Source of the DNA: an uncultured bacterium
GTDB taxonomy: Bacteria; Fidelibacterota; JAANXI01
Reading direction: 5' to 3'
Assembly: GCA_964413425.1 (NCBI GenBank)
Contig: CAYPST010000010.1
Span: 5,070-69,069, forward strand
DNA length: 64,000 nt
This document shows, one piece after another, positions 31,182 through 56,284 of the stretch. The notes under the pieces are model-generated. The model did no database searches. It was not told the origin of the DNA and saw only the letters and a program-made list of their open reading frames with translations. Both the position numbers and the translations under genes were made by a program. Position 1 is the stretch's first letter; each line of letters starts with the position of its first letter.

Positions 31182-31249
31182 ATCTTCCTCACGTTATTCC
31201 CGACTTACGGGAGTTTTTTGTCTGATTAAAAAACATACGAAATTTTGCT

Positions 31250-38769: not shown

Positions 38770-40383
38770 TCACTCGGTCTTTCCTTGCACAGAGGGGAAC
38801 TGTGAACCCGCACTCTCTTCTTCGGTGACGTACCCCTTCAGATCAGAGATGGTCCGAACACCCAGCTCTTCTGCATGGGATTCTCTCATGAGCAGGGCAT
38901 AGGTATTATTGAATCCCAGGGGACTGAGCCACTCCAGATCATACTGTTTCTCGAATTGAGTCCTGACGTATTCATAGACTTTTTGCCTGTCCTGTAAGAT
39001 GGATTGCGTGGTCTCCTGGTCGGTGTCCAGGAGCACAAGCAGTCCGGTTCCGGTGTATTCGGGATACAGGTCGATTTCGCCGTGGACCAGCGCATCGAAG
39101 CAAATTTTTGTCCCGCCCAGACCGGTTTTCAGGCCAACGGTGAGATCGGTATAGTTTTCGATCAGCCGATAAAAGATATGGGCAAGTATGAACTGTTCGG
39201 TAAAGTTTTTTGATGCCACTATGATATCAGGGGTTCCGGTCCGTTCGATTTCTGTCCGGAAGCCGTGTTCCCGTAAGTAATTTTTTGCCACCGCGGCCGG
39301 CCCCTGCTGATGCTGATCTACCTGGAAATTCAGGTTTCGCATGGTTTCATTGGAAATTGTTCCTGCAATTTTTTCAAGTGCCGTCCGCAGTTGAGGATAC
39401 TTTCGAATGGTCTCACCCCGCACGACAGGTGCGGCCTGATACGGAGGGAAATATTGTCTGTCATCCCGCAGGACGCGAAAATTATAGGCTGTAATACGAC
39501 CATCGGTGGAAAATCCGCTGATAACATCCACCTTTTTATCCCGCAATGCCCGGTACATCAACTGGGGATCGACCTCGACCGTGTTTAACGTCAGGCCATA
39601 ATGTTCCTTCATCCCCTGATATCCGTCGGATCGGGCCATGAATTCAGCCGTAAATCCCGCTTGAAAAGTTTCCGTAAACAGTGGGGGAAGCACCAAAACG
39701 GGTACGACAATGAATAACACGGCGACAGCACCTATGAGAGCCGGCTTGATTATCTGCCGGATCACGGTTTCCAACCGTCCCAGAATGAAGTCAAACAGCA
39801 GTGCCAGTAAAGCGGCAGGGATTGCGCCTGCCAGAATCATGTTCGTGTTATTCAGCGCAATCCCCCGAAAGATGAATTCGCCGAGTCCGCCGGATCCAAT
39901 CAGTGCACAGAGGGTAGCGATCCCGACATTGATAACGGTGGCGGTCCGAATCCCTGCAAAAATAACGGGCAGAGCCAGCGGCAGTTCAACCTTCATAAGA
40001 ATCTGTCTGTCGGCCATCCCCATGCCGCGCGCAGATTCAATAACACTGTCATCCACGTCATTGATTCCGGCATAGGTGTTGCGAACAATAGGGAGCAGGG
40101 CGTACAGAAATAATGCGATAATGGCCGGTGTCGCACCAATGCCGAAAAGCGGGAGGAGGAGGCCCAGAAGGGCCACGCTTGGAATAGTCTGGATGACCCC
40201 GATGCCCCCGATGACGACATCCGACACATTCCGGTGGCGGGTCAGCAGTATTCCTGCCGGAAGGCTGATCACCGTAGCAATGGCCATAGCGAAAAAGGTC
40301 AGACCAATGTGTTCTATTGTCTGCTCGATCAGGTCGGTTTGATGCGCAATGAGAAATTGAAAGATATTTGCCGGAGAGCTCAT
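38770..40383 (-). CDS. glycine betaine/choline-type (OpuC/OpuABC-like) ABC transporter, permease fused to substrate-binding domain
   Basis: N-terminal 6-TM permease with EAA-like loop, C-terminal OpuAC-type SBP. Confidence 0.8.
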   Translation of the reverse strand: MSSPANIFQFLIAHQTDLIEQTIEHIGLTFFAMAIATVISLPAGILLTRHRNVSDVVIGGIGVIQTIPSVALLGLLLPLFGIGATPAIIALFLYALLPIVRNTYAGINDVDDSVIESARGMGMADRQILMKVELPLALPVIFAGIRTATVINVGIATLCALIGSGGLGEFIFRGIALNNTNMILAGAIPAALLALLFDFILGRLETVIRQIIKPALIGAVAVLFIVVPVLVLPPLFTETFQAGFTAEFMARSDGYQGMKEHYGLTLNTVEVDPQLMYRALRDKKVDVISGFSTDGRITAYNFRVLRDDRQYFPPYQAAPVVRGETIRKYPQLRTALEKIAGTISNETMRNLNFQVDQHQQGPAAVAKNYLREHGFRTEIERTGTPDIIVASKNFTEQFILAHIFYRLIENYTDLTVGLKTGLGGTKICFDALVHGEIDLYPEYTGTGLLVLLDTDQETTQSILQDRQKVYEYVRTQFEKQYDLEWLSPLGFNNTYALLMRESHAEELGVRTISDLKGYVTEEESAGSQFPSVQGKTE

Positions 40384-41351
40384 AACTCGATAGTTTGTCT
40401 TACCCTGTAAAAGGCGTTCAAGATCGCCTGGGGAGTGAAGTCAATACCAGCGGATGCCTCATCCCTGATACTAACCACCGGCTGCTCTGCGTCGGCATTT
40501 TCCACCGTTTCCAATGCCTCGTACAGGGACGTATCGCCGGCAAATTCGAAGGACTGATCTGCAGTGGTTTCCTGCGGCTTGAGCTGAGAGACAATATCAT
40601 TGAGCGTCAGGGTTTGCAGTTCCAGCTGCAGTCTGTTTCCTTTTAAAAAGTCCCGTACGAAATCGTTTTTCGGTGCGAAGAGGAGTTCTTTTGGTGTTCC
40701 CAGTTGCTGAACATTGCCCTCATCCATCAGGCAGATAATGTCGCCAAGCTCGAAAGCTTCCATGACATCATGGGTCACCAGGATCATGGTTTTGTCCAGA
40801 AACTGCTCCAGGCGTTTAAATTCAGTGCGGATATCCAGCCGGGTAATAGGATCTAATGCGCCGAAGGGTTCGTCCAATAAAACGATGGGAGGATCGGCGG
40901 CTAAGGCCCGGATCAACCCGATGCGCTGTTGCTGCCCACCGCTCAGTTCATGTGGCATACGCCCGAGGTATTCTTCCGGCGGAAGGCCTACCAGTTCCAT
41001 GAGTTCATGCTGGCGCTGCTGCATCTTTTTTTCATCCCAGTGGAGGAGTTTGGGGACCACTGCGATATTTTCGCCGACCGTATAATGGGGAAACAGCCCG
41101 ATTTCCTGGATGACGTACCCGATATGCTTTCGCAGTTCCACCGGGTTCTGCTGCTGGATTTCTTTCCCCTCGATGCGAATGGAACCCGCGGTTGGTTCAA
41201 TCAGCCGGTTAATCATTTTGAGGGTCGTGGTTTTCCCGCTGCCGCTCGTTCCCAGCAGCACCAGTGTCTCTCCCTGTTCGACGGCAAAGGAAATCCCATC
41301 AACGGCGGTAAACCCATTAAAAGTTTTTTTAAGATGTGAGACGTCTATCAC
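40380..41351 (-). CDS. quaternary-amine ABC transporter ATP-binding protein (OpuCA/ProV-like) with C-terminal extension
   Basis: Walker A GTSGSGKTT, LSGGQQQRIGLIRALA, Walker B, plus an ~80-aa C-terminal regulatory-like tail. 4-bp overlap with the permease gene. Confidence 0.85.
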   Translation of the reverse strand: MIDVSHLKKTFNGFTAVDGISFAVEQGETLVLLGTSGSGKTTTLKMINRLIEPTAGSIRIEGKEIQQQNPVELRKHIGYVIQEIGLFPHYTVGENIAVVPKLLHWDEKKMQQRQHELMELVGLPPEEYLGRMPHELSGGQQQRIGLIRALAADPPIVLLDEPFGALDPITRLDIRTEFKRLEQFLDKTMILVTHDVMEAFELGDIICLMDEGNVQQLGTPKELLFAPKNDFVRDFLKGNRLQLELQTLTLNDIVSQLKPQETTADQSFEFAGDTSLYEALETVENADAEQPVVSIRDEASAGIDFTPQAILNAFYRVRQTIEL

Positions 41352-41360
41352 AGCAGCAGC

Positions 41361-42611
41361 TTATTTATGAATTTGTAGAATCACCAGGAGACTGTGTCCG
41401 CATCCCAGCCCTTGTTGCAAGCCGTGCTCCAGTCCACGGAGAGCGTAGCTCAGCTGGGGCTCAATAATATTTGCTCTCGGATCACCAACCCACATCCAGT
41501 TCGTGCTGGCAATTACCCGGTCGATGGTCATCAAACCGAATTGCAGTTCCTTGGAATACGCCGTCCAGTCGGACAGATCGTTCAGGGTCATATCGTCGTT
41601 CAATTTCTGTTGAGTGTACTCAACTAAAATATTCCAGCGTTCGATCAAATTCCGAAGAAACGGAGCGGCCACCGGATGCTCCGGTACAATCTCCGGATCG
41701 AGCAGCAGATTCTCTAAGTCTGTCCGGAGATAATCTTCATGCAGAGAATTGAGAAATCGCCTGATCGGAGGGAGCGAAGGATTGTATTCTCCGGTATCCG
41801 TATGCCGGCCAACCAGGATTGAGCGATCTCCCATGTGCGATACCTCAAAAGGAAGATTTTGCTGGGCTGATAGGTCGTTCACAAATTCCCGAATTTCGTC
41901 GCCAGTCCAGAATCGAATGGGAAAATGGTCGATATGCTGATGAATTCCGTTGTCGGTATAGAGATAACTCATCGAGTAATCGCGCATTTTTTCATCTTCC
42001 GTGCTCGCCGTCCAATATCCGGGCCACTCAATAGAATATCGTCCCATGAGATCTAATGTTACGATACTGTCATTATTCCCATGGTGATAGATGTCCGTCA
42101 ATACTCTCCGAAGGCTCTCGGTGTCCAGATGAGAAAGGGAACTGTAGGACGAGAAATAAATATCGAAGGCTGGTTCTGCGGATGAAATGCCGGAGAGCCC
42201 TTGATTTAAGTCGTGTTGCTGAAATTGAACGTGTGGGTTATGCACATAGATTTCCTGCCCTTTCCGAATCATATCCGGGTTGATATCAACACCCAGGTAG
42301 CATTCAATATCCTCTTCCTGTAAAATGTAATTGTATTCAAGCCCTAAGTCAGATTCTTTTGCATTGACTTTCGTCAGGAGTTCGTAACCCTGTCCGCTGC
42401 CGCATCCCAAATCAAGTATCCTGACTTTTTCACCCTGATCCCGCTTTTTTTGCACCAGCGAGCGTAAAAAGGGCCGGATAGTATATCTGGTTAATTGGTC
42501 CTCCCAATAGATGCGGAGATTATCATATTTTCCGGAGAGATTCCCCTCATAGAGATTATAATAGCCATGTTGGACGGCACTTTTATAATTAATAAAACTG
42601 TTTGATTCCAT
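41361..42611 (-). CDS. class I SAM-dependent methyltransferase with long C-terminal extension (416 aa)
   Basis: Motif I ILDLGCGSGQG, post-I acidic residue; about 200 extra C-terminal residues of unknown function. Confidence 0.7.
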   Translation of the reverse strand: MESNSFINYKSAVQHGYYNLYEGNLSGKYDNLRIYWEDQLTRYTIRPFLRSLVQKKRDQGEKVRILDLGCGSGQGYELLTKVNAKESDLGLEYNYILQEEDIECYLGVDINPDMIRKGQEIYVHNPHVQFQQHDLNQGLSGISSAEPAFDIYFSSYSSLSHLDTESLRRVLTDIYHHGNNDSIVTLDLMGRYSIEWPGYWTASTEDEKMRDYSMSYLYTDNGIHQHIDHFPIRFWTGDEIREFVNDLSAQQNLPFEVSHMGDRSILVGRHTDTGEYNPSLPPIRRFLNSLHEDYLRTDLENLLLDPEIVPEHPVAAPFLRNLIERWNILVEYTQQKLNDDMTLNDLSDWTAYSKELQFGLMTIDRVIASTNWMWVGDPRANIIEPQLSYALRGLEHGLQQGLGCGHSLLVILQIHK

Positions 42612-43063
42612 ATCCCGCGCCTCCCATCTATCATTAATTTGTACTTATCACTGAAGCGATTTTTGTTCAAAACGACCATTCTTATGTAATACATTTTTCG
42701 AGAGACAAGTAAACAAGCGACTGCAACCCCTTCCTGAAACGGGAAGGGGATACCTGCGACATCACAGCCACTCAATTCGGAATAGTGTAACGATTGTGAA
42801 TGATTTATTCAATCGATAAGACAACACTATTCAGACGCCAGGATTTCTCTGATTTTCCGAACAAACGAGCAATTGGGCTGCGCTTCACTGTGAATCCGCA
42901 GTCAAACCGTTGTTGTGAAGAGAGGTGAGTGTTCATAGAAGGCCGGTAATGGAGGGGTGTTAGTTCTGCTAATTCTCTGACTTGTTCACTGCTGTCCGCA
43001 TTGAAGTGCAGGTTGAAATCACATTTCAATGATTAACATTCAGTGCGGTAGGTTTTCTTGATC

Positions 43064-43525
43064 ATGACTATTAAGATACCTCAGTACAATAGCGACATGC
43101 TCCTCCGGGTGGACCATCTCTCCACCCATCCCGGCCCCGATCACTCTATCCCCCTTGACCCTCTTTCTCTCGCCAGAGAAAGGGGGGGCGGGCCCCAAGA
43201 GAGGGGGACCGAGGGGGGGAGTGCCCGCTGCTCCGGTCCACCAAATCGGCCCTCCGCCCGGACTGCCTCGTCGGGAGCGCAACCAGCTCGCTCTTTACGG
43301 AGTTAACTTAATACCTAAGTTGAGCGATACGAGTTTCGCGAAGTATCGCTGTACTTAGGGAAAACCCCGCCCTAGAAAATGTGTGTTTTCACCGAATGGG
43401 TGCGGAACGTCCCGACGCCGTTCTCGGGGAGGTGAACACGTATGCCGACGGCATTCTTCGAACATTTTCTTTTGTCGGTTGAGCGATGTATGGAAATAAA
43501 TCGCTCAATTTGGGTTAATAGTCAT
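43064..43525. mobile_element. composite MITE: MITE-1 (TIR ATGACTATTAAG) with MITE-2 (43314-43514) nested inside its right end, flanked by TTAATA duplication
   Basis: Left TIR at 43064-43075, right CTTAATAGTCAT at 43514/43515-43525. TTAATA at 43308-43313 and 43515-43520 brackets the MITE-2 insert. Confidence 0.6.
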
Positions 43526-43530
43526 ATTCT

Positions 43531-44997
43531 CTATTTGAACGGATCCCACCGGGCAACCATACTTTCGTAACCGACCGGGAAATGATCCTGAAATAATTTA
43601 TAATAATACACTTCTTTTGGTGAATTTAATTCAAGGCCGCCTTCGGATTGCCCCTTGTTTTTGTATTCGTCCTCCGAGGTATTATCAGCAGTCAGCTCAT
43701 CCATCAAATCATCCACCCCTGTTCCGCCGGCGAATCGAAGTTTCGGTCGGTTGGCAATTTCATCAGGCAGCCATTTCTTCATTGCCTCCCGGAGAATCCA
43801 CTTCTCGACAGTCCGGGCTTGTTCTTCATCATACCGGGTCTTTAATTCCATGGGTATTTTGTTGCTGAATGCGACCACTGCCGGATCCAGATAAGGCGTG
43901 CGGTAATTCACGGAATTGGCAAGCCAGCCGCGATCCAGTCTGCGTAATGCGGTATTATAGGCAATAGTTACCAGTTTCCGGGCCACCCGTTCTTTTTTTT
44001 CGACATCCGGTATGTCCTCCAGTTCCTGAAAGTATCCGCCGAACAATTCATCGGCACCTTCACCGACCACCACACAATTGGTATAATCAGAAATCATTTT
44101 CGAGGTGTAGAAATTCGCGATGGCTCCGGAAATGCAATCCTCATCAAATGTTTCCATATACCAGACGGCTTCCGGGATCAGACTCTTGATATCGTTGTCA
44201 GTGATTTCATAGATATAGTGCTCTAATCCGAGGTAATCGGCCATGAGTTTGGCATATTTCATATCTTTGCTCGGATATCGCTGGATCGTGGTGCTGAAGA
44301 GTTTCAGATCGGGATTCACAGATTTGGCTACTGCTGCGGATACAGAACTATCCAGTCCACCGCTCAGAGCGACCCCCTGTACTGCTCCATCTGCCATCCG
44401 TTTTTCAACCGCCTTCACAAAAAGCCGTTCCAGGATGTCAGCGGCTTCCTGGGAGCTGTCAAAGTCGGGAAGGTTCGGGGTGTAGCCGTCAAATTGCTGC
44501 AATCCGTCTTTGGTGGAATAATAATGTCCCGGAGGAAGTTCTTCCACAGCCGGGACATGCCCCAGTAATGATTTTGCCTCCGAAGCGAAGTAGAGGGTGC
44601 CATCCCGCTCTTTATATATTAAGGGCCGGGATCCGACATGGTCGCGTACAAGAAGAGTTTGACCCTTATCAATAACGGCGCATGAAAACGAACCATCCAG
44701 GTGTGAAAAACATGCCGGCCCCATTTGCATGTACTGGTCTCTGATAAACTCGGCATTCGTGGTGGTCTCAGAAATGGAATTATAGATATCACCGTCCAGT
44801 AAAACCACAGGGTACTCATCACCTGCTATGGCTGGGGTCGACCGGGGAGAGAGTGTTAATTCACCTGCTGCCACTCCGCCATCCGGCAGGGCCCTGACGG
44901 TGGAATTGTCCGGACCACGATGGCGGATTTTCTCCAGCATGTCTGCGAGCTGCTGTTGTTCGACTTTTTCACCGACGACACCGACGATTGCGCTCAT
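43531..44997 (-). CDS. asparagine synthetase-family protein lacking the N-terminal catalytic Cys (MSAI... instead of MCGI...)
   Basis: Aligns throughout with the neighbouring AsnB. Synthetase domain has the SGGLDSS PP-loop. Position 2 is Ser. Confidence 0.75.
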   Translation of the reverse strand: MSAIVGVVGEKVEQQQLADMLEKIRHRGPDNSTVRALPDGGVAAGELTLSPRSTPAIAGDEYPVVLLDGDIYNSISETTTNAEFIRDQYMQMGPACFSHLDGSFSCAVIDKGQTLLVRDHVGSRPLIYKERDGTLYFASEAKSLLGHVPAVEELPPGHYYSTKDGLQQFDGYTPNLPDFDSSQEAADILERLFVKAVEKRMADGAVQGVALSGGLDSSVSAAVAKSVNPDLKLFSTTIQRYPSKDMKYAKLMADYLGLEHYIYEITDNDIKSLIPEAVWYMETFDEDCISGAIANFYTSKMISDYTNCVVVGEGADELFGGYFQELEDIPDVEKKERVARKLVTIAYNTALRRLDRGWLANSVNYRTPYLDPAVVAFSNKIPMELKTRYDEEQARTVEKWILREAMKKWLPDEIANRPKLRFAGGTGVDDLMDELTADNTSEDEYKNKGQSEGGLELNSPKEVYYYKLFQDHFPVGYESMVARWDPFK

Positions 44998-45035
44998 ATG
45001 CTCCTCCTGTGAAAGTTCAATTCATCAACACATTT

Positions 45036-46631: not shown

Positions 46632-46685
46632 ACCAACACCTTGGTTCTCTCAGCTAGTAGTTCCAAAGATTTTGGTTTCGGCACG

Positions 46686-48259: not shown

Positions 48260-48934
48260 CTATGCCACTGCTTCCAGTTTGTTAATCGCGTCAAATGCAT
48301 CTTCCCCGTACAAATCAGCGCCAATTTGTTTCGCAAAATCCTCCGATGTGGGAGCGCCGCCGATGCACACGAGCACTTCATCCCGGATCCCTTTTTCTTT
48401 GAGCAGGTCAACTACCTCTTCCATATGTCCCATGGTTGTCGTCAGGAGCGCAGAGAGCCCGAGATATTTGGCCCGGGAATTCTCCACAGCTGTTACCACG
48501 TCTTCGGCTTCCACTCCGACTCCCAGGTCCTCCACCTCAAAACCGGAACCACGGAGCAAAGTTGAGACAATATTTTTACCTATATCATGGAGATCGCCTT
48601 CCACGGTGGCGATGATAAATTTCCCGCGGCTGTTGATATCACCTTCAACCAGGAGTGGTTCCAGAATTTTGGTTGCTTCACTGACGCACTCTGCCGCTGC
48701 CAGCATATCGGGAATCAAGTACTCGCCGCTCTCATAGCGCCGGCCGACTTCTTCCATACCGGGACTCACCGCCTCATTTAAAATAGTCGACGGCGCTAAG
48801 GAATCCTCCAGACCTTGCTGCACCAGCTCAATCACACCAGGTTCACCCGCCATATCACCATCAAATCCTTCATCCGCGCTGTCGATGCGTCCATCAATCA
48901 CATTCTTCTTGATTTGTTCCAGGATGTCTGACAT
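48260..48934 (-). CDS. cobalamin-binding corrinoid protein (MtgC/MtbC-like)
   Basis: B12-binding DxHxxG (GDLHDIGKN), SALL, GGA motifs, N-terminal helical cap. Start ATG at 48934 with SD AAGGAGA. Confidence 0.85.
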   Translation of the reverse strand: MSDILEQIKKNVIDGRIDSADEGFDGDMAGEPGVIELVQQGLEDSLAPSTILNEAVSPGMEEVGRRYESGEYLIPDMLAAAECVSEATKILEPLLVEGDINSRGKFIIATVEGDLHDIGKNIVSTLLRGSGFEVEDLGVGVEAEDVVTAVENSRAKYLGLSALLTTTMGHMEEVVDLLKEKGIRDEVLVCIGGAPTSEDFAKQIGADLYGEDAFDAINKLEAVA

Positions 48935-49312
48935 GGGTTCTCCTTTTATTGTTTGATTTGCCTGAGTATTCCAAAAAATCAGCACACAGATTCACACGGA
49001 AAAAAACGGAGGATCGCAGATTATCCACACATCCCAACACCTCGAAGTATATAGGTGCATAAGTACATACGTGTCGGCGATTGTATGGTAAATTAACCAT
49101 GAATTATCGACTCCGGAGTAGTAATGCAGGAAAGAGCGACGCTTGCAGCCTCTATGCACTTATGTCCGTATGTACCCGATGAAGTGCAGGTGTGAGGCCT
49201 CCTTCCTCTTGCCTCTTTACTCATTCCTATTGTTAAATCGCTATTCATCCTTTTTTTCCGTGTTCATCTGTGTGCTATGCTTTTCATCGCAAGAATACTT
49301 CGGATTTGTATG

Positions 49313-50887
49313 TTATTTAAGTTCAAATCTCTCCCTGGGTAACAGACCGGGACACTCAGCAAGTAGTTTGTTTAACACTTCCGGTTCAATTGGTTGTCCG
49401 GGTTGTGCCATAATTTCTTGAAGACGATCCTGTGCTTTGATTAGCACCTGATCTTCCATTTCGTCAGTTTCGAACGGATACGGTGAGGAGACCAATCCCT
49501 TCCTCCGGGCTTTGCGGAAAGATCGTGCGAACAGTTTGGTGGGAGAATCGACCGTGCGTCGAATCCCCTGAACAGCGGTATCGACCTCCTCTTTTCCAAA
49601 GATGGGCTGGCGCAGAATTTCCCGGATAATCCCGAGGTGGGCATCGTCAAGTACTGCCTGTAAAGGCGAAAAGGTGTTCGTTTTTTCCAGCAGGCCAATC
49701 GCATAGTGGATATATTGTGCGCCTGCTGCCGCCACTTCCAGCTGGGAAAAGAGTTTTTCGACAGTGGCCTGTACTCCGGGCACCTTTGCATCACCGACCC
49801 CGGCAGAGGAATAGCAGGGAATACCATAATGGCGGGCCATTTGAATACAATCGACATTATAGTGGATAAATTCCGGTGCGCCGTAGAAATCATGCAGGGT
49901 GTCCTGACGGGCGCGCACCGGCACAGCGCCATATAACACCGGGGTCCCGGGATTGGTAAGCTGCGTCAACGCGATCCCTGCCAGCAGTTCGGCATTAATC
50001 AGAGACACCATCCCTTCTTCCTGGACGGGTGCTGTTGAGCCGCCCTGGGGCGAGCTGGAGATCGCCACCGGAATACCTTGTTCAGCGATCCGAATTAATT
50101 TTTCCGTGGTATCATCCACCATCTGCAACGGGCTCTTTATCACACAGGTGATAAAAGATATAATCGGATTCTGGCGAAGTGCTTCTTCGCCCCCGGCGAT
50201 ACGTTCGGCTAACTGTATGACCGTATCCAGAGATCGGAGATCTTCCAGGCCGGCCTGGACATGTTTGGTCATGTACATTAACGCCGCCATGAACATATTG
50301 ACATCTTTGTTTTCCGGCGTGATGTCCGGGTCCTGGATATTGACATTCCGGATGAAGAAATCCACATGATCTAACGCATTGCACAATTTTGCAGATTGAC
50401 AGAGATGCAGCAGTGAGCCTCGTTCCCTGTGAAAAGCGACACCTTGCTTCTCAATGGACGGCGCATCCTTTTTCACATAAGTCGTTAACTCGGATTGGAG
50501 TATGTGATTGGTTTCCGCGCCGGTCCCGAAATACACCATCGGTTCCGCAGCATTGAGTTGTAAGGTGTTGTCCGGGTTCCGGGCACCGAGCATCACTTCG
50601 GTGGGAACCGTCTCCAGTATCCGGGTGATCACCTCTTCCGGGAAACGAATATTCCAGATCGTTTGATGGGTGCTTTCCTCCCGGACATCGCATCCCGCAT
50701 TCCCATAGATTTCCGCAGCATGAGCGTTGTGGCACACAATCCCGGGATCCGCCAGAATATCCAGCGAGGCCTCATGCAGCATTTGCACCTGATCCTCGTC
50801 GATGCGCACCCGCGGCTGAACCAGGGTACCGGGCCTGACTTTCCGTTCGCTCATGCTTTCCGGGGATGAGGTCACTTTACCTGACAT
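49313..50887 (-). CDS. MttB-family methyltransferase paralog 2, non-pyrrolysine
   Basis: 524 aa; YFGTGAETN, IPVAISSSPQGGSTAP, GIPCYSSAGVGD blocks. Confidence 0.8.
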   Translation of the reverse strand: MSGKVTSSPESMSERKVRPGTLVQPRVRIDEDQVQMLHEASLDILADPGIVCHNAHAAEIYGNAGCDVREESTHQTIWNIRFPEEVITRILETVPTEVMLGARNPDNTLQLNAAEPMVYFGTGAETNHILQSELTTYVKKDAPSIEKQGVAFHRERGSLLHLCQSAKLCNALDHVDFFIRNVNIQDPDITPENKDVNMFMAALMYMTKHVQAGLEDLRSLDTVIQLAERIAGGEEALRQNPIISFITCVIKSPLQMVDDTTEKLIRIAEQGIPVAISSSPQGGSTAPVQEEGMVSLINAELLAGIALTQLTNPGTPVLYGAVPVRARQDTLHDFYGAPEFIHYNVDCIQMARHYGIPCYSSAGVGDAKVPGVQATVEKLFSQLEVAAAGAQYIHYAIGLLEKTNTFSPLQAVLDDAHLGIIREILRQPIFGKEEVDTAVQGIRRTVDSPTKLFARSFRKARRKGLVSSPYPFETDEMEDQVLIKAQDRLQEIMAQPGQPIEPEVLNKLLAECPGLLPRERFELK

Positions 50888-51144: not shown

Positions 51145-51957
51145 TTACTGCGTAAATAACCCCTGTCTCTCCGCCCGGGAATAATGCCGGCAGTATCGAT
51201 CTTGTCCGGCGAACAGTTCCCCCAGCAGTATGGCTCTTTGAATCTCCGGATCCGTAGGATCACAAATGGCCGAATCGAGTCCGTGTGGGATGGCGTTGAG
51301 AAGAAACGCGGCATTCAGCACGGTTCGGGATCGCAGCCCGAACGAGATGTTCGATACGCCAACCGTTATTCTTGAGTCCGGGAATTCACTTCTGAACCGA
51401 TGCACGGCTTCCAGAGCAACCTTCCCGAACGTATGATCCGAGGAGAGAGGCATCGCCAGGGGATCAAACAGAATATTCTCTGCCGGTATGTCGAACTTTC
51501 CGGCCTCTTCGTGAATTGCCCGGCAATTCTCGATTTTCTCGTCTACTGTCTTGGGCATGGTTTCACCGCCCATGGCCAGTGCAATCATCGGCATGCCTTC
51601 CCGGGCAACCAGCGGTAAGAGTTCCTGTAAAATCCGTTCCTCATTTTTAATGGAGTTCAGAAGCCAGCCCCGGTTTCCGTTAAGATACGCAGCCGCTTTT
51701 TGTATGATCTCCGGCTCTGCAGAATCGATGCTGAATGGTTTGTCCGTGCATTCCAGTGCAATGTCAATTAACCAGGACATGTCAGCGATTTCTTGCCGGG
51801 GATCCCCGCTGCCGGTGCCGGCATTCAGATCGATGTAATCAGCACCTGCTTCATCCTGTGAGGCGATCTGATCGCGTATGACCGCATCATCCCGATTCTT
51901 AATGGCCTCTGCAATGACAGTCCTTGTGGCGTTGACTTTTTCACCGATAACTAGCAT
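51145..51957 (-). CDS. methyltetrahydrofolate:corrinoid methyltransferase (pterin-binding, MtrH/MtgA/AcsE-like)
   Basis: LVIGEKVN N-terminus (IGERIN-like), DLNAG, pterin-binding barrel pattern; 270 aa. Confidence 0.75.
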   Translation of the reverse strand: MLVIGEKVNATRTVIAEAIKNRDDAVIRDQIASQDEAGADYIDLNAGTGSGDPRQEIADMSWLIDIALECTDKPFSIDSAEPEIIQKAAAYLNGNRGWLLNSIKNEERILQELLPLVAREGMPMIALAMGGETMPKTVDEKIENCRAIHEEAGKFDIPAENILFDPLAMPLSSDHTFGKVALEAVHRFRSEFPDSRITVGVSNISFGLRSRTVLNAAFLLNAIPHGLDSAICDPTDPEIQRAILLGELFAGQDRYCRHYSRAERQGLFTQ

Positions 51958-51964
51958 AATCCCC

Positions 51965-53464
51965 TCAATCTGTACTTACAGGTTCATTCTGAAACAAATC
52001 TGCTTGAATATTTGGGAATGAGCCCCTGAACTGTTCAAGAGTATCCTCTTCAACATACAGGGTGGGGTCTTCCGCGAGGAACTGCTCCACACATTCATGA
52101 GCCTCTTCTGCGGTGGTTCTGCCGCCATTGGTTATCCAGGTTTCCCGCTTGTCCCGGTTGGTCAGGGCGGGCGTATAGTGTTCCTCGTGCATATAAGTCC
52201 GGGTATGGCGCCCCGCGACGAAATTCCCGCCGGGACCGACCTCTTTGATCGTCTCAAAGGCGAGTGTATCAGCGTTCACCTCAATACCTTGCAACACCCG
52301 CATGACCATTCCCAGGATTTCATTGTCGATGATTAATTTCTCTTTACTGACCGTGGTTGCGAACTCCATTAATCCGGCGGCATCGTGGATAAAATCTCCG
52401 CCCGCCATAGCGACCAGAAGATTGTTTATCGCGGACTCGTACCCGCTTTGCGCATCCAGAGTTTTGGAGTCGCTAATCCCGGCGGTCGAGTAGTAGGGAA
52501 AGCCATAGAAGCGGGCCAGCTGGGCACTGGCGGCGTTCAGCATGCCGCTTTCCACCGGTCCGCCCAGGTAGCTGAGATCCTGCATATTTACCGAAGAGGC
52601 CACACTCCCATAGATGGCGGGAGCGCCCGGATCGGCCAGCTGGGTCAGCATGATATGTATAAGTCCGTCGCAATTTTGCATCACCAGCGTCCCTGCCAGG
52701 GTAATAGGCGCCGTGGCTCCGCTGAGCGGCTCCACCGGCACTGCCACCGGAATGCCTTTGCGGGCCAGTTGAATGATAAATTTGCCGTACTTGCTATCCA
52801 ATCGCAGAGGACTGATACCACAGGCGATTATAGAAATAAATGGCCTTTCCCGAAGCCCTTCCGGGCTCCCGGCAAGTTTTTCAGCCATCCTGATGACATC
52901 ATTGACGCCCTGTTGAGTGTATATTCCGCCCATCACGTGTTTGGACGTATACATCATGCCGGTGAGGAACCGGTGCACATCCACGTCTTCCACCGGCAGT
53001 TCAGTGGGGTAGGTGGGGAGCAGCATTACATGGATGTTATCCAGCTGATCAACCAGCCGGACAATATCCACGAGATCCTGTAAAGTGGCGGGACGATTGG
53101 TGTCTTCTCCGTGATCCAGGATGTTCATTGCAGTGCCGCCGGTGCCAAAATAGACATTGCCTGCACCCAGCTGCACGTCCTGATCCGGTTGCCTGCCACA
53201 GAGCGTAACCTGCCGCGGCACCGACGAAATAACATCCATCACCTGGGATTCGTTCAGGCGAACGATGTCTTCCCTGGTATCGATTTCCGCGCCGATTTCG
53301 TCGAATAAGGCGAGTGCTTCCGGTTCCGTGACTTCGAATCCCACTTCTTCCAGGACCCGCATACTGGTATTGTGAATTTGCTGAATATCCTCTGAACTCA
53401 GTGGTTCATACAGCCGGCTCTGTTGGTCGAGTTCCTGTTCAAGTGTGCGAATAATGTCAATCAT
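51965..53464 (-). CDS. MttB-family methyltransferase paralog 3, non-pyrrolysine
   Basis: 499 aa; YFGTGGTAMN, IPVAVPVEPLSGATAP, GFPYYSTAGISD blocks. Confidence 0.8.
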   Translation of the reverse strand: MIDIIRTLEQELDQQSRLYEPLSSEDIQQIHNTSMRVLEEVGFEVTEPEALALFDEIGAEIDTREDIVRLNESQVMDVISSVPRQVTLCGRQPDQDVQLGAGNVYFGTGGTAMNILDHGEDTNRPATLQDLVDIVRLVDQLDNIHVMLLPTYPTELPVEDVDVHRFLTGMMYTSKHVMGGIYTQQGVNDVIRMAEKLAGSPEGLRERPFISIIACGISPLRLDSKYGKFIIQLARKGIPVAVPVEPLSGATAPITLAGTLVMQNCDGLIHIMLTQLADPGAPAIYGSVASSVNMQDLSYLGGPVESGMLNAASAQLARFYGFPYYSTAGISDSKTLDAQSGYESAINNLLVAMAGGDFIHDAAGLMEFATTVSKEKLIIDNEILGMVMRVLQGIEVNADTLAFETIKEVGPGGNFVAGRHTRTYMHEEHYTPALTNRDKRETWITNGGRTTAEEAHECVEQFLAEDPTLYVEEDTLEQFRGSFPNIQADLFQNEPVSTD

Positions 53465-53470
53465 AGTTCT

Positions 53471-54148
53471 TCACGCAGCCTCTCTTCGATATGGACAGGT
53501 ATTCTTTTTACAGGTTCTGCAAGCATTTCTGGTTAATTGTATGCCCTCCTTCCCTCCGATTCCCATGAGCCCGGAGATCGTTTTCCTCGGAGACATCAAT
53601 GCGGTGTCAAGCAGGCGCACTCCGATCCGGTCCGAGGGAAGCAGAGCAAACAGTTTTTCCTGTTCTCCTATCGGCCAGTCACAATAACCCGGACTATAGC
53701 GGAAAGTTGTTGTTTCTTCAGGTTCCAGGGTTTGTTCAATACGGTTTTGAATAGACTGTGCTGTTGTTTCCGCAGCCACCGAAGCAGCCGCATCCAGAAT
53801 AAATCCATAATGCGGCTTACGCTCCATTGTCTCCCGGATCCTTTGATCGACATCCTCACCCAGGGTCAGCAGGAAAACCACCGTCCTGTCGCAGGTAGAC
53901 AACACTTCCGCAAGCATAGGGCTCTCCAGAGGGACATCTCCTTCCAGAATCACCGTGTTCTCTTCAATATGATGGGAAATGATCCGCTCGATTGCCCGGG
54001 GATGCGCCAATTCACAGATCTCCTGCTCGGCGTGCTGCATTTCTGTTGCCACCCGAGCTGACAGGGCATGGACATTTCTTTTCCCTAACCTTCGACACAG
54101 ATCTCGCCCGGAAATTTTGACCGGAATTTTCATATAATCCAAAACCAT
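53471..54148 (-). CDS. standalone MetH-activation-domain-like protein (AdoMet-binding reactivation domain homolog) with C-terminal Cys cluster
   Basis: FRYSPGYCDWPIGEQEKLFALL resembles the MetH RxxPGY..CP.HTEK..L..LL AdoMet-binding motif. C-terminal CRTCKKNTC. Size matches split-MetH activation subunits. Confidence 0.45.
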   Translation of the reverse strand: MVLDYMKIPVKISGRDLCRRLGKRNVHALSARVATEMQHAEQEICELAHPRAIERIISHHIEENTVILEGDVPLESPMLAEVLSTCDRTVVFLLTLGEDVDQRIRETMERKPHYGFILDAAASVAAETTAQSIQNRIEQTLEPEETTTFRYSPGYCDWPIGEQEKLFALLPSDRIGVRLLDTALMSPRKTISGLMGIGGKEGIQLTRNACRTCKKNTCPYRREAA

Positions 54149-54790: not shown

Positions 54791-56284
54791 ATGTCCGAAA
54801 AAGTAAACATCCGCCTGGAACCCGCAGGAAAAGAATTCCAGGTCAGTTCCGGCACCCGGCTGATGGATGTGGTGCACCAGTACGGCGTGGAATTTCCCTG
54901 CGGCGGAAAAGGTACCTGCGGGGGATGTAAAGTCAGACTACTCACCGGCGATATCCATCTCACCCCTGACCACAGGGAAGCATTGCAGGAGATCGGACTC
55001 ACTGAAGAGTGGCGATTAGCATGTCTCAGTTCCGTCGAAAGTGATGTGGTGCTGGAAGTGGATCAATGGGAGCATATCATCCTGGCAGACAATACCACCT
55101 TCGAGTTCCTTCCGCGTGAAGGGTACGGCATTGCGGTGGATCTGGGCACCACAACCATCGTTTCACAACTGGTGGATCTGTCCGACGGGAATGTGATCAG
55201 CGTTCAGAGAGCCTTAAATCCCCAATCGCGGTATGGGACGGATATTATGTCGAGGATAGAGTTTGGTATACGATCACAGGAGAACGAGGAATTACTTACC
55301 GCCCTCTCCAGAGAGGTTGTCGGACAGCAGATAGAGGATTTGTTGCAGCAATCGGATGGGACGGTTTCCACCATCGTCATTGTCGGAAACACGGTCATGC
55401 ATCATACCTTCTCCGGCATTGACCTGAAGCCGCTTTCCGCGTATCCTTTTCACTCTGCCGACAGTGGAGCCCAAACCTTTCATCCCTTCGACCTTGAGCT
55501 CGACCTTCCCGGTGAGCCGCGTATCACATTCCTCCCCTGTATCGGCGGATTTGTGGGCAGCGATATCCTGGCAGGGATTATGGCAGCCAGGATGCATCGC
55601 AGTGACGAATGGATCGCCTTAATAGATTTAGGCACCAATGGTGAAATCGCCATCGGGAGTAAAGAACGGATCCTCTGTGCTTCGACGGCAGCAGGGCCCG
55701 CGTTTGAAGGCATGAATATCTCCATGGGAATGAGTGCGACCACCGGAGCCATATCTTCGGTATCTGTGGAGGAGGGGAAACTGCGATGTCATGTGATCGG
55801 AGATGAGCGGCCCAGGGGAATCTGCGGGAGTGGATTAATTGATGCCGTTGCTGTGCTGTTACAGGAGGGAAGAATCAATAATCGGGGACGATTTACCGGT
55901 TCTTCCGATACCATCGAATTGCTTTCGCCGGTATATCTCAGCCGAAGAGATATCGGGGAATTTCAGCTGGCGAAGGGCGCCATTGCCACCGGAATGCAAA
56001 TATTAATGGATCAACTCGGACCGGATCATGTGGATCTTCGGCAAGTCTATATTGCCGGAGCCTTTGGTCATTATCTCAATCCGCACAATATCCGGCAAAT
56101 CGGCATGCTGCAGCACGACCCGGATAAGATACAGAAGCTGGGGAACAGTGCATTGATCGGGGCAAAGATGTCTCTGTTTCAGGAATTTGATACCATCAAT
56201 GAGATATTAGAAAAAACCGAGCACATCTCACTGGAATCCGAACCGGACTTTCAACATATTTTTACTGAAAAAATGCTGTTCTAA
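54791..56284 (+). CDS. RamA/RACo-type ATP-dependent reductive activase of corrinoid proteins (2Fe-2S ferredoxin plus ASKHA ATPase)
   Basis: N-terminal CGGKGTCGGCKV...C ferredoxin motif; actin-like ATPase blocks (VDLGTTT, DLGTNGE). Confidence 0.8.
   Translation: MSEKVNIRLEPAGKEFQVSSGTRLMDVVHQYGVEFPCGGKGTCGGCKVRLLTGDIHLTPDHREALQEIGLTEEWRLACLSSVESDVVLEVDQWEHIILADNTTFEFLPREGYGIAVDLGTTTIVSQLVDLSDGNVISVQRALNPQSRYGTDIMSRIEFGIRSQENEELLTALSREVVGQQIEDLLQQSDGTVSTIVIVGNTVMHHTFSGIDLKPLSAYPFHSADSGAQTFHPFDLELDLPGEPRITFLPCIGGFVGSDILAGIMAARMHRSDEWIALIDLGTNGEIAIGSKERILCASTAAGPAFEGMNISMGMSATTGAISSVSVEEGKLRCHVIGDERPRGICGSGLIDAVAVLLQEGRINNRGRFTGSSDTIELLSPVYLSRRDIGEFQLAKGAIATGMQILMDQLGPDHVDLRQVYIAGAFGHYLNPHNIRQIGMLQHDPDKIQKLGNSALIGAKMSLFQEFDTINEILEKTEHISLESEPDFQHIFTEKMLF

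What the first reader, a model, noticed from the sequence alone, without database searches (positions are those of the whole stretch)
38770..56284. Corrinoid-dependent quaternary-amine methyltransferase island with three non-Pyl MttB paralogs, dual reactivation proteins and a dedicated OpuC-type importer
A contiguous, mostly co-directional block encodes the following. (1) An OpuC/OpuABC-type ABC importer: ATPase plus a fused permease-SBP. (2) A 416-aa SAM methyltransferase. (3) Two AsnB-family amidotransferases. (4) Three full-length MttB-superfamily methyltransferases with no in-frame amber codon. (5) A B12-binding corrinoid protein (DxHxxG). (6) A methyl-H4folate:corrinoid methyltransferase. 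(7) A standalone MetH-activation-domain-like protein. (8) Divergently, a RamA/RACo reductive activase. In characterised systems (MtgBCA of Desulfitobacterium/Acetobacterium) one MttB homolog, one corrinoid protein and one THF methyltransferase demethylate glycine betaine. Here three substrate-methyltransferase paralogs share one corrinoid protein, suggesting a multi-substrate hub for betaines such as proline betaine, carnitine or gamma-butyrobetaine. It is physically linked to an ABC rather than BCCT importer and to enzymes (AsnB pair, long methyltransferase) not part of any described methylotrophy cluster. The host is Gram-negative (TonB, lipoproteins), an unusual setting for this chemistry.
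Basis: partly seen in the sequence, partly recalled or inferred. Interest (0 to 1): 0.75.

Follow-up and report, generated by a model that had tools for sequence, protein, structure and literature searches.

The report
Three-MttB corrinoid operon tied to asparagine synthetases
The 13 genes are all real, but the three MttB enzymes are a fixed trio that travels with asparagine synthetases in many anaerobes, which points to the making or breaking of one unknown asparagine-derived betaine rather than a hub for several known betaines.

Summary
Observation confirmed: all 13 genes are present at the stated coordinates.

The island fuses two conserved modules.
- **Module A:** AsnB, a 416-aa SAM methyltransferase (MT416) and an ABC importer with a fused permease and binding domain. 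It recurs in cyanobacteria, Scalindua, Caldilineaceae, Myxococcota and others.
- **Module B:** a MetH-activation-like protein, MttB1, a methyl-THF:corrinoid methyltransferase, MttB2, a corrinoid protein, MttB3 and a Cys-less AsnB-like enzyme. AsnB or a CN-hydrolase, MetVF and the same importer are optional. It recurs as a unit in about 25 loci from anaerobes of at least four phyla.

The three MttBs are three orthogroups, about 30% identical to each other. Each has its own conserved pocket residues, and none matches the glycine-betaine site of MtgB. The importer is one orthologous family across both modules. Only this window combines Module B with MT416 and RamA.

My best reading is a three-step methyl relay between THF and one asparagine-derived betaine. 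I slightly favour the synthetic direction over demethylation. Neither the solute nor the direction is shown. I found no paper describing the operon.

The claim that a Gram-negative host is unusual is wrong.

The parts
38770..40383 (-). ABC permease fused to a C-terminal betaine-type substrate-binding domain (OpuF/EgtU architecture). The binding domain is circularly permuted relative to solved OpuBC/EgtUC structures.
   Evidence: Pfam BPD_transp_1 plus OpuAC. Best PDB matches are Lmo1422/EgtUC, OpuBC and OpuCC at 160-203 bits, with the two halves in swapped order. It is 58-68% identical to the transporters of both module A and module B loci.
40380..41351 (-). ProV-type ABC ATPase of the importer.
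   Evidence: PF00005. TIGR01186 proV, 311 bits. Orthologs are 54-66% identical in both modules.
41361..42611 (-). MT416: a class I SAM-dependent methyltransferase with a conserved helical C-terminal domain. It is the hallmark of module A and a candidate N-methyltransferase that makes the betaine.
   Evidence: Pfam Methyltransf_25/12/31/11. There are 931 homologs, the closest 50-60% identical, in cyanobacteria, Scalindua and Caldilineaceae. It sits next to AsnB in about 20 of 33 genome loci. The AF2 model has pLDDT 87.7. The top Foldseek hit is glycine sarcosine N-methyltransferase, but the margin is generic. It is absent from all 30 module B loci.
42612..43530 (.). Non-coding gap that marks the junction between module B and the MT416-importer block. 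It contains a structured repeat of about 210 bp (43313-43516).
   Evidence: No ORF and no pseudogene by blastx. Repeats of 75-87% identity also lie at 23774-25283 (alignment). RNA fold z = -3.7. In L058 the corresponding spacer is 77 bp.
43531..44997 (-). AsnB488: an asparagine-synthetase-like enzyme without the glutaminase nucleophile (starts MSAIVG) but with an intact synthetase site. It is the most constant partner of the MttB trio.
   Evidence: Pfam Asn_synthase. NF006949 scores 291 bits against a cutoff of 499. PP-loop and synthetase motifs are invariant with AsnB. All orthologs start MSA or MAG. An AsnB-type gene follows MttB3 in 21 of 22 informative loci, and it is AsnB488 in 20 of them. 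Homologs also occur alone in Desulfurivibrio.
45036..46631 (-). AsnB531: a canonical glutamine-hydrolysing asparagine synthetase B (starts MCG).
   Evidence: NF006949 scores 591 bits against a cutoff of 499. 295 bits to E. coli AsnB 1ct9. Cys2 is present in all orthologs. It is present in a subset of module B loci (65-77% identity) and in most module A loci (42-46%).
46686..48152 (-). MttB3: a divergent MttB-superfamily methyltransferase (orthogroup 3).
   Evidence: PF06253, 181 bits. It belongs to a tight family of about 85 proteins with a sharp score drop below it. The AF2 model has pLDDT 87.6 and matches every MttB-superfamily structure at TM about 0.70 and 21-23% identity. Pocket signature: PCCG, INSA, EQV.
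48260..48985 (-). Corrinoid (B12-binding) protein shared by the three MttBs. The true start is probably the ATG at 48934.
   Evidence: PF02310 plus PF02607. DLHDIG motif. Orthologs are 224-227 aa.
49313..50887 (-). MttB2: a divergent MttB-superfamily methyltransferase (orthogroup 2).
   Evidence: PF06253, 191 bits. 31% identical to MttB1 and 30% to MttB3. Orthologs are 49-80% identical. Pocket signature: PCYS, IHYA, D[KG]T.
51145..51957 (-). Methyl-THF:corrinoid protein methyltransferase (MtgA/MtqA/AcsE-like).
   Evidence: PF00809. NF005719, 247 bits.
51965..53464 (-). MttB1: the most canonical MttB-superfamily member (orthogroup 1).
   Evidence: PF06253, 375 bits, full length. 254 bits to DhMtgB and 250 bits to Pyl-MttB. 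The glycine-betaine-binding residues of MtgB are not conserved (Y97 to T, R312 to Y, H348 to D, F356 to A).
53471..54148 (-). MetH-activation-domain-like protein with a conserved C-terminal Cys motif. It is the first gene of module B in most loci.
   Evidence: PF02965, 30.3 bits. RYSPGYCDW and NACxxCxxxxCxYRR are conserved in orthologs.
54791..56284 (+). RACo/RamA-type ATP-dependent corrinoid reductive activase with an N-terminal 2Fe-2S domain. It is divergently transcribed and its adjacency is specific to this window.
   Evidence: Fer2 plus Raco_middle plus RACo_C_ter. AcsV-like, 323 bits. No RamA homolog lies within 10 kb in any other module B locus.

Best explanation
**What it is.** The island is a metabolism island for one betaine-type solute that is built on asparagine. 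The candidate is N-trimethyl-asparagine ('asparagine betaine'). It was assembled from two conserved modules.

**Module A** is AsnB531 + MT416 + importer. It is the SAM-dependent synthesis and recapture route found in cyanobacteria, anammox bacteria and others.

**Module B** is MetH-activation-like protein + MttB1 + methyl-THF:corrinoid methyltransferase + MttB2 + corrinoid protein + MttB3 + Cys-less Asn synthetase AsnB488. It is a corrinoid relay. Each of the three MttB orthogroups handles one of the three N-methylation states of the same solute. All three exchange the methyl group with a single corrinoid protein, which the pterin-binding methyltransferase couples to THF.

**Direction.** I favour methyl-THF to solute. 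That would be a SAM-independent, MetH-like ('split MetH') way for anaerobes to make the betaine. The Asn synthetases would supply the precursor and the importer would recapture leaked solute. In this window the SAM enzyme MT416 has been added as a second methylation route.

**Shown:**
- gene identities;
- conservation of the trio and of its linkage with AsnB488;
- the shared transporter family;
- distinct conserved pockets in the three MttBs.

**Inferred:**
- the solute;
- one methyl group per MttB;
- the direction.
For: 1. **The trio is a unit.** MttB1, MttB2 and MttB3 are 30-31% identical to each other. Each has orthologs of 46-83% identity, in the same order, in about 25 loci. These come from Bacillota (Dethiobacter, Phosphitispora), Aminicenantes, Spirochaetota, Chitinivibrionales and an FCB-type bacterium.
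2. **Three distinct pockets.** Each orthogroup has its own strictly conserved residues at the positions that bind substrate in MtgB. All three are therefore under selection for different ligand states.
3. **Asn synthetase linkage.** An Asn-synthetase-type gene follows MttB3 in 21 of 22 informative loci. AsnB488 keeps all synthetase-site motifs. It also occurs alone in Desulfurivibrio, so it looks like a plain NH3-dependent Asn synthetase. Where AsnB531 is missing, a CN-hydrolase often sits beside it. That resembles the glutaminase partner of NAD synthetase (my inference).
4. **Same design with SAM.** AsnB, a methylating enzyme and the same importer also occur with the irreversible SAM enzyme MT416 in photoautotrophs and others. 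The importers of the two modules are 58-68% identical and do not separate by module.
5. **MetH-like composition.** Module B holds the four functional modules of MetH. The MetH-activation-like protein, not RamA, is the conserved reactivation partner.
6. **Hosts.** Carriers include specialists not known to use methylated amines. Phosphitispora sp. TUW77 'grows exclusively on testosterone' and has no importer at the locus (PMC11912376). Dethiobacter is a soda-lake lithotroph (PMC10376724).
7. **Precedents for direction.** Homologous corrinoid methyltransferases run in opposite physiological directions (EmtAB against AbeAB, PMC11912376). MtgD works in both directions (PMC12478193).
8. **Binding domain.** It has the AfProX/OpuC-type aromatic motifs, which fits a trimethylammonium ligand (PMC9732360).
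Against: - Every characterised non-Pyl MttB member (MtgB, MtpB, MtcB, MtyB, MthB) is a catabolic demethylase of a quaternary amine (PMC13080624, PMC12155760). None is known to methylate an amine or to act on secondary or tertiary amines.
- Methylation of an amine by methyl-Co(III) is chemically unprecedented in physiology.
- The solute has never been reported.
- The binding domain would also fit glycine betaine or choline.
- MT416 is redundant in this window if the trio also methylates.
- Single MttB homologs next to MT416 look like a make-and-break pairing: in Caldilineaceae with GntR, GNAT and GcvT, and in Sumerlaeota.
- An importer in the operon is classically a catabolic feature.
- The thermodynamic argument (N-methyl to THF transfer roughly thermoneutral) is my own rough estimate, not a tool result.
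Confidence: 0.4

Rival explanations
1. Catabolic relay. The same solute, made by module A organisms, is imported and stripped of all three N-methyl groups by MttB1, MttB2 and MttB3 in turn. The methyls pass through the corrinoid protein to THF and on to oxidation or acetyl-CoA. AsnB488 (with AsnB531 or a CN-hydrolase as ammonia donor) either conditions an acidic precursor by amidation before demethylation, as the kinase MthK conditions choline for MthB, or has a side role.
For: - All characterised family members are demethylases (PMC13080624, PMC12155760).
- An ATP-dependent substrate-conditioning enzyme inside an MttB cluster has a direct precedent in MthK (PMC12155760).
- The importer is in the operon in 10 loci.
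- MetVF inside the operon parallels metF2 in Ruegeria betaine catabolism (PMC12478193).
- MttB homologs lie beside MT416 in Caldilineaceae (with GcvT and GntR) and in Sumerlaeota.
- PurU lies 5 kb away in this window.
- RamA is present here.
Against: - Co-expressing one or two ATP-consuming Asn synthetases with a pathway whose end product would be asparagine is paradoxical.
- AsnB488 also occurs alone, so it is not specialised for a betaine.
- Demethylation of tertiary and secondary amines without pyrrolysine is as unprecedented as the reverse reaction.
- Some carriers have no importer and a very narrow substrate range (PMC11912376).
Confidence: 0.3
2. Complete anaerobic demethylation (or synthesis) of glycine betaine itself: betaine to dimethylglycine to sarcosine to glycine by MttB1, MttB2 and MttB3. 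The Asn synthetases would be unrelated passengers.
For: - The binding domain carries AfProX/OpuC-like features: Phe at the EgtU G244 position and Tyr at the F293 position (PMC9732360).
- The best structural match of MT416 is glycine sarcosine N-methyltransferase.
- Similar clusters in candidate division KB1 were read as betaine utilisation (PMC4993014).
Against: - The MtgB glycine-betaine-binding residues are replaced in all three orthogroups.
- It gives no role for the near-universal AsnB488, for AsnB in module A, for the CN-hydrolase or for the glutaminase neighbours.
- The Foldseek margin for MT416 is generic.
Confidence: 0.1
3. One reading: a multi-substrate hub in which each MttB paralog feeds a different known quaternary amine (proline betaine, carnitine, butyrobetaine and so on) into one corrinoid protein.
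For: - Eubacterium limosum does share MtqC and MtqA among MtpB, MtcB and MtyB (PMC12155760).
- The three pockets differ.
Against: - The same three orthogroups are co-inherited in one operon across phyla. In E. limosum the substrate enzymes are scattered and separately induced.
- There is a single importer of one orthologous family.
- The model does not explain the Asn synthetases.
Confidence: 0.08
4. The AsnB genes, MT416 and the importer are unrelated neighbours of an ordinary MttB cluster, and their adjacency is coincidental.
For: - A 919-bp gap with repeats separates MT416 from AsnB488.
- AsnB488 homologs exist alone.
Against: - The linkage of MttB3 with AsnB488 holds in 21 of 22 loci.
- The linkage of AsnB with MT416 holds in about 20 loci across phyla.
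Confidence: 0.04

Closest known systems
MtgBCA glycine betaine:THF methyltransferase system (Desulfitobacterium hafniense, Acetobacterium woodii, Methanolobus)
   Same: A non-Pyl MttB-superfamily TIM-barrel enzyme, a cognate DxHxxG corrinoid protein, a pterin-binding methyltransferase and reductive reactivation.
   Different: - Three fixed MttB orthogroups instead of one.
- The MtgB betaine-binding residues are not conserved.
- There is an obligatory Asn-synthetase partner.
- The conserved reactivation gene is MetH-activation-like rather than RamA.
Eubacterium limosum MtqC/MtqA hub (MtpB, MtcB, MtyB) and MthBCA with the kinase MthK
   Same: Several MttB paralogs use one corrinoid protein. MthK shows that an ATP-dependent enzyme in the cluster can modify the substrate first (PMC12155760).
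   Different: - There the paralogs are separate, substrate-induced loci for different betaines, and each removes only one methyl group.
- Here the trio is one co-inherited operon, and the accessory enzyme is an amide synthetase.
Methanogen trimethylamine pathway (MttB/MtbB/MtmB with MttC/MtbC/MtmC)
   Same: Three dedicated methyltransferases remove three methyl groups from one nitrogen step by step.
   Different: - Those three enzymes are unrelated folds, need pyrrolysine and each has its own corrinoid protein.
- Here there are three MttB-fold enzymes, no pyrrolysine and one corrinoid protein.
Cobalamin-dependent methionine synthase MetH (and split MetH in Roseobacters)
   Same: The same four functional modules: an acceptor-binding barrel, a pterin-binding barrel, a B12 domain and an activation domain with an RxxPGY-type motif. 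MtgD is bidirectional in Ruegeria (PMC12478193).
   Different: - The acceptor module is an MttB barrel in three copies, not the Zn-homocysteine barrel.
- All modules are separate proteins.
- The activation-like protein has an extra Cys motif.
SAM-dependent betaine synthesis (GSMT/SDMT for glycine betaine; EgtD for hercynine) and amidated osmolytes (NAGGN with AsnO)
   Same: Module A pairs a small-molecule class I methyltransferase with an AsnB-family amidotransferase. Amidation to neutralise a carboxylate is a known osmolyte strategy (my background knowledge).
   Different: - MT416 has no sequence-level membership in the GSMT, SDMT or EgtD families.
- It has a unique C-terminal domain.
- Its product is unknown.
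EgtUV / OpuF-type ABC transporters
   Same: An ATPase plus a single polypeptide that carries the permease and a C-terminal binding domain. The binding domain scores 186-203 bits to EgtUC/Lmo1422.
   Different: - The EgtU signature residues are not kept (G244 to Phe, F293 to Tyr), so it is not ergothioneine-specific.
- The two halves of the binding domain are in permuted order.

Membership tests
MttB superfamily (PF06253) | Sequence match above the Pfam gathering score. | tested here: met
   375, 191 and 181 bits against a cutoff of 25.
MttB superfamily (PF06253) | Full-length MttB TIM-barrel fold. | tested here: met
   The MttB3 AF2 model (pLDDT 87.6) matches 7xcl, 9yce, 4yyc and 2qne at TM 0.68-0.71 over the whole chain. 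MttB1 and MttB2 were not modelled.
Pyrrolysine-dependent trimethylamine methyltransferase MttB (TIGR02369) | An in-frame UAG (pyrrolysine) at the active-site position and a score above the equivalog cutoff. | tested here: not met
   There is no internal stop. Ile, Val and Val occupy the Pyl position. Scores are 435, 245 and 215 bits against a cutoff of 525. The PYLIS_3 hit of 33 bits is below the gathering score of 38 and reflects coding homology.
MtgB (glycine betaine methyltransferase) | Betaine-binding residues Y97, R312, H348 and F356 (PMC13080624). | tested here: not met
   Aligned residues are T, Y, D, A in MttB1; T, Y, Y, T in MttB2; and T, C, S, V in MttB3. Each set is conserved within its orthogroup.
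MtgB (glycine betaine methyltransferase) | Betaine-dependent methylation of cob(I)alamin or the corrinoid protein. | not testable with these tools
   Needs an enzyme assay.
Methyltransferase cognate corrinoid protein (TIGR02370; MtgC/MtqC-like) | A B12-binding_2 cap plus a Rossmann B12 domain with DxHxxG. | tested here: met
   PF02607 plus PF02310. DLHDIG. TIGR02370 scores 186 bits, below its cutoff of 215, and the MtgC exception models are also below cutoff. It is therefore a family member but not a named equivalog.
RACo/RamA corrinoid reductive activase | An Fe-S domain plus the RACo middle domain plus the ASKHA ATPase domain. | tested here: met
   Fer2 plus Raco_middle plus RACo_C_ter. It is below the equivalog cutoffs for AcsV (323 against 800) and RamA (157 against 500).
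Asparagine synthetase B (NF006949) | An N-terminal Cys nucleophile and a score above the equivalog cutoff. | tested here: met
   AsnB531 starts MCG and scores 591 bits against a cutoff of 499.
Asparagine synthetase B (NF006949), applied to AsnB488 | An N-terminal Cys nucleophile and a score above the equivalog cutoff. | tested here: not met
   It starts MSAIVG, scores 291 bits against 499 and has deletions in the glutaminase domain. The synthetase motifs are retained.
EgtU (ergothioneine importer) | A fused permease and binding domain plus the EgtU signature (Gly244, Phe293) (PMC9732360). | tested here: not met
   The architecture is met. The signature positions read Phe and Tyr, as in AfProX-type binders. 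The residue mapping is my own, made through the Lmo1422 alignment.
GSMT/SDMT or EgtD betaine-forming methyltransferases, applied to MT416 | Sequence membership in the family. | tested here: not met
   There is no NCBIfam hit and no significant PDB sequence hit. The only similarity is at the class I fold level, with GSMT on top at E = 3e-8 and TMq = 0.35.

The most novel reading that the evidence does not exclude
Anaerobes from several phyla make a trimethylated, asparagine-derived compatible solute without SAM. They would do this by running an MttB/corrinoid/methyl-THF system in the methylating direction: a 'split MetH' whose three MttB barrels add the first, second and third N-methyl group. 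This would be the first biosynthetic role for the MttB superfamily, the first corrinoid-dependent N-methylation pathway and a new osmolyte.
Probability: 0.38. Interest if true: 0.92.

Novelty: new variant of a known kind. Interest (0 to 1): 0.78.

Why it matters
Thousands of non-pyrrolysine MttB homologs have no assigned substrate. The few that do each remove one methyl group from a known betaine.

This case is different in three ways:
- It defines a widespread operon type with three co-inherited MttB orthogroups and a single corrinoid protein. It is absent from the literature I could search.
- The operon is tied to asparagine synthetases and to a transporter shared with a SAM-dependent module in cyanobacteria and anammox bacteria.
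- That linkage gives a concrete, testable candidate, an Asn-derived betaine, both for an unknown osmolyte and for the substrates of three orphan enzyme families.

Whichever direction proves right, the result would be new. It would be either the first pyrrolysine-free stepwise removal of all three N-methyl groups, or the first corrinoid-dependent synthesis of a betaine. Cultured carriers exist (Dethiobacter alkaliphilus, Phosphitispora sp. TUW77, Nodularia spumigena), so the question is directly testable.

Tried and rejected
- **Source genome:** exact-sequence look-ups of window proteins found no stored contig.
- **MT416 against PDB sequences:** nothing significant.
- **RNA elements:** an Rfam scan of the island and of the repeat region found no riboswitch or known RNA.
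- **Promoters and terminators:** the scan gave fewer sites than shuffled sequence and was uninformative.
- **The 919-bp gap:** blastx found no AsnB or other pseudogene.
- **Literature:** no paper links MttB with asparagine synthetase, names asparagine betaine or related terms, or describes the MT416-AsnB cluster in Nodularia. The Roberts osmolyte review has no relevant solute. No supplementary expression tables are held for the TUW77 paper.
- **Ergothioneine or hercynine as the ligand:** considered and rejected, because the EgtU signature residues are not kept.
- **Recent paralog expansion of the MttBs:** considered and rejected, because the three are only about 30% identical.
- **AsnB488 as a dead pseudoenzyme:** considered and rejected, because its synthetase motifs are invariant.

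Full report
**1. Observation**

Twelve genes lie on the minus strand and one on the plus strand.

| Coordinates | Gene | Key evidence |
|---|---|---|
| 38770-40383 (-) | Permease fused to an OpuAC-type binding domain | |
| 40380-41351 (-) | ProV-type ATPase | |
| 41361-42611 (-) | 416-aa class I SAM methyltransferase (MT416) | |
| 43531-44997 (-) | AsnB-family protein, 488 aa (AsnB488) | |
| 45036-46631 (-) | AsnB-family protein, 531 aa (AsnB531) | |
| 46686-48152 (-) | MttB3, PF06253 181 bits | |
| 48260-48985 (-) | Corrinoid protein with DLHDIG | |
| 49313-50887 (-) | MttB2, PF06253 191 bits | |
| 51145-51957 (-) | Pterin-binding methyltransferase | |
| 51965-53464 (-) | MttB1, PF06253 375 bits | |
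| 53471-54148 (-) | MetH-activation-like protein | |
| 54791-56284 (+) | Divergent RACo/RamA activase | |

None of the three MttB proteins has an internal stop codon.

Two refinements matter later.
- AsnB531 is a canonical glutamine-dependent AsnB. It starts MCG and scores 591 bits against the NCBIfam AsnB cutoff of 499.
- AsnB488 starts MSAIVG and has deletions in the glutaminase domain. It scores only 291 bits but keeps every synthetase-site motif.

A 919-bp non-coding gap separates AsnB488 from MT416.

**2. The three MttBs are three old orthogroups, not a local expansion**

- They are 30-31% identical to each other, and alignable only over the barrel.
- All are roughly equally distant from the solved family members: DhMtgB, Pyl-MttB and the Sinorhizobium homolog.
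- The MttB3 model (pLDDT 87.6) has the full MttB fold at TM about 0.70 but only 21-23% identity.
- MttB3 defines a tight family of about 85 proteins with a sharp score drop below it. All are uncharacterised.

**3. Module B, a conserved operon**

Context look-ups and a metagenome scan followed by tblastn with all 12 island proteins show the same order in about 25 loci:

MetH-activation-like, MttB1, pterin-binding methyltransferase, MttB2, [MetV-MetF], corrinoid protein, MttB3, [AsnB531 or CN-hydrolase], AsnB488, [ATPase, permease-binding domain].

The extra genes were identified by Pfam.

Carriers named by the sources are:
- Dethiobacter alkaliphilus, Phosphitispora sp. TUW77 and Ca. Contubernalis (Bacillota);
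- Aminicenantes, Spirochaetota and Chitinivibrionales;
- a bacterium with Por-secretion genes.

Counts:
- An AsnB-type gene follows MttB3 in 21 of 22 loci that have enough downstream sequence.
- MT416 is in none of the 30 loci.
- RamA is in none of the 30 loci.

This window is therefore a module B locus of the L058 type. It has gained a 2.2-kb insert (the gap plus MT416) and an adjacent RamA.

Within each MttB orthogroup, the residues aligned to the MtgB substrate-binding positions (Y97, R312, H348, F356; PMC13080624) are strictly conserved. They differ between orthogroups, and none matches MtgB. All three are thus selected for distinct ligands or ligand states.

**4. Module A**

MT416 has hundreds of homologs. 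The closest are 50-60% identical and come from cyanobacteria (Nodularia, Crocosphaera, Leptolyngbya PCC 7375, Calothrix, Scytonema and diatom endosymbionts), Ca. Scalindua and Caldilineaceae. More distant ones (34-48%) occur in Vicinamibacterales, Myxococcota, Binatia, Opitutaceae, Sumerlaeota and Methanoperedens.

- In about 20 of 33 genome loci it lies next to a canonical AsnB.
- In about 12 of those loci the same ATPase and fused permease-binding-domain follow.
- These loci have no MttB trio.

The fused transporter proteins of module A and module B loci are 58-68% identical and do not separate by module. The Scalinduaceae protein is closer to module B proteins than to Nodularia. Both modules therefore handle the same or a very similar solute.

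The MT416 model (pLDDT 87.7) is a class I methyltransferase with a unique helical C-terminal domain. Glycine sarcosine N-methyltransferase is the top structural hit, but the margin over other small-molecule methyltransferases is slight.

**5. The transporter**

The binding domain is closest to Lmo1422/EgtUC, OpuBC and OpuCC (160-203 bits). Its two halves are in permuted order. The architecture is that of OpuF/EgtU (PMC9732360).

I mapped residues through the Lmo1422 alignment. The EgtU signature Gly244 and Phe293 read Phe and Tyr here, as in AfProX-type binders. I therefore infer a trimethylammonium head group but not ergothioneine. Glycine betaine cannot be excluded on this evidence alone.

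**6. What AsnB488 is**

- All orthologs lack Cys2, starting MSA or MAG.
- Close homologs (63% and 51%) stand alone in Desulfurivibrio alkaliphilus and in another genome.
- The simplest reading is an ammonia-dependent asparagine synthetase.
- Where AsnB531 is absent, a CN-hydrolase often sits beside it. By analogy with the glutaminase domain of NAD synthetase, I infer that it donates ammonia.

Both modules therefore combine asparagine synthesis, a methyl-transfer system and one transporter family.

**7. Mechanism**

The core inference is that the three MttB orthogroups are three fixed steps on one solute. Each moves one of three N-methyl groups between the solute and the single corrinoid protein. 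The pterin-binding enzyme couples that protein to THF. The likely solute is an N-methylated asparagine, candidate trimethyl-asparagine.

The direction is not shown. Arguments for synthesis (methyl-THF to solute):
- Module B mirrors the clearly biosynthetic module A, with only the methylation machinery swapped.
- Co-expressed Asn synthetases make sense as precursor supply. They are paradoxical in a pathway that would end in asparagine.
- The conserved reactivation partner is MetH-like, with RYSPGYCDW and a C-terminal Cys motif. Module B therefore has the four modules of MetH.
- Carriers include Phosphitispora sp. TUW77, which 'grows exclusively on testosterone' and has no importer at the locus (PMC11912376).
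- Homologous corrinoid systems do run in opposite physiological directions (EmtAB against AbeAB, PMC11912376). MtgD is bidirectional (PMC12478193).
- From standard formation energies I estimate that N-methyl to THF transfer is roughly thermoneutral, so a high methyl-THF/THF ratio could drive accumulation. This is my own rough estimate from memory, not a tool result.

Arguments for catabolism:
- Every characterised non-Pyl MttB is a demethylase.
- MthK shows that an ATP-dependent enzyme can condition the substrate (PMC12155760). AsnB488 might do the same by amidation.
- metF next to the system has a catabolic precedent (PMC12478193).
- Single MttB homologs sit beside MT416 in Caldilineaceae (with GntR, GNAT and GcvT) and in Sumerlaeota.
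- MT416 would be redundant in this window if the trio also methylates.

**8. Comparison with what is known**

The parts belong to known families. The system works like MtgBCA, MtqBCA or MetH. It fails the membership tests for Pyl-MttB, MtgB, EgtU and, in the case of AsnB488, AsnB.

I found no paper that links MttB with asparagine synthetase or that names asparagine betaine. Similar clusters in candidate division KB1 were read simply as betaine use (PMC4993014).

**9. Host**

The rest of the window encodes an apiosidase-like hydrolase, FG-GAP proteins, an FGE-sulfatase-type enzyme, GntP and MFS transporters, PurU and TonB. That suggests an uncultured Gram-negative polysaccharide degrader. Its proteins are singletons at 90% identity.

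**10. Verdict**

The real finding is a widespread, undescribed three-MttB/Asn-synthetase operon, fused here uniquely with a SAM-dependent module for the same solute. I rate it a new variant of a known kind, of high interest, and testable in cultured organisms.

Noticed in passing
window 43313-43516 and 25101-25283 (inverted); also 23774-23899 and 24037-24153: A repeat of about 210 bp (88% identical in the MAFFT alignment) lies directly after the AsnB488 stop codon and again upstream of the GntP gene. It contains two hairpins. Its RNA fold has z = -3.7. It has no Rfam match. More fragments lie in the ORF-poor stretch 23.6-25.5 kb.
   Followed up: partly
window 52378-52475 (-), inside MttB1: A sub-threshold match to the mttB pyrrolysine insertion element PYLIS_3 (33.2 bits against a gathering score of 38). 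It sits at the codons aligned to the Pyl position, where MttB1 has Ile and no UAG. It most likely reflects coding homology.
   Followed up: partly
window 38773-39711 (-), the binding domain of the fused permease: The two lobes of the OpuAC-type binding domain are in swapped (circularly permuted) order relative to Lmo1422, EgtUC, OpuBC and OpuCC. Orthologs in both modules align over their full length, so they share this order.
   Followed up: partly
window 35583-38324 (+), 57904-58347 (+), 58493-61771 (+): Two large hybrid histidine kinases rich in PAS domains and a stand-alone response regulator flank the island. An Aminicenantes module B locus also has a PAS kinase nearby. They are possible regulators. 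This was not tested.
   Followed up: no
window 32875-33744 (+): PurU (formyl-THF deformylase: ACT plus Formyl_trans_N) lies about 5 kb from the island, beyond TonB and a kinase. It is a possible link to C1-THF oxidation.
   Followed up: no
window 5438-11135, 28754-32677: An apiosidase-like hydrolase, two large FG-GAP repeat proteins, a GHL6/fucosidase-like protein and an FGE-sulfatase-type enzyme. Together they suggest a host that degrades sulfated polysaccharides.
   Followed up: no
L018 6949-8290 (endosymbiont of Rhopalodia gibberula); also L021 and L013: The AsnB next to MT416 is broken into several frames, while MT416 itself gives a near-full-length match. This may be decay of the module or a sequencing artefact.
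   Followed up: no
L004 4383-6347 (-) and L009 7856-9826 (-), Crocosphaera: A 654-aa protein with two glutaminase domains is divergently transcribed from MT416. This is another amide-nitrogen enzyme linked to the module.
   Followed up: partly
L020 1232-16009 (Caldilineaceae); also L022, L031 and L030: Here MT416-AsnB is embedded in a Dpp/Opp-type ABC transporter (SBP_bac_5) instead of the betaine-type one. It lies beside a divergent GntR-MttB-GNAT-GcvT cluster, which looks like a synthesis-plus-breakdown arrangement.
   Followed up: partly
L064 and L065 (JGI Ga0180433/Ga0180431): This lineage has MttB2 and MttB3 but no MttB1 ortholog between the MetH-activation-like gene and the pterin-binding gene. 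Only a 32%-identical MttB lies further upstream.
   Followed up: no
L092 1445-2350 (Phosphitispora sp. TUW77): An MscS-type mechanosensitive channel gene lies about 4 kb upstream of the minimal module B (three MttBs, corrinoid protein, AsnB488), which sits among ribosomal-protein and DnaB genes.
   Followed up: no
window 48934-48985: The corrinoid protein ORF starts at a GTG, but the orthologs (224-227 aa) suggest that the true start is the ATG at 48934 (MSDILEQ...).
   Followed up: partly
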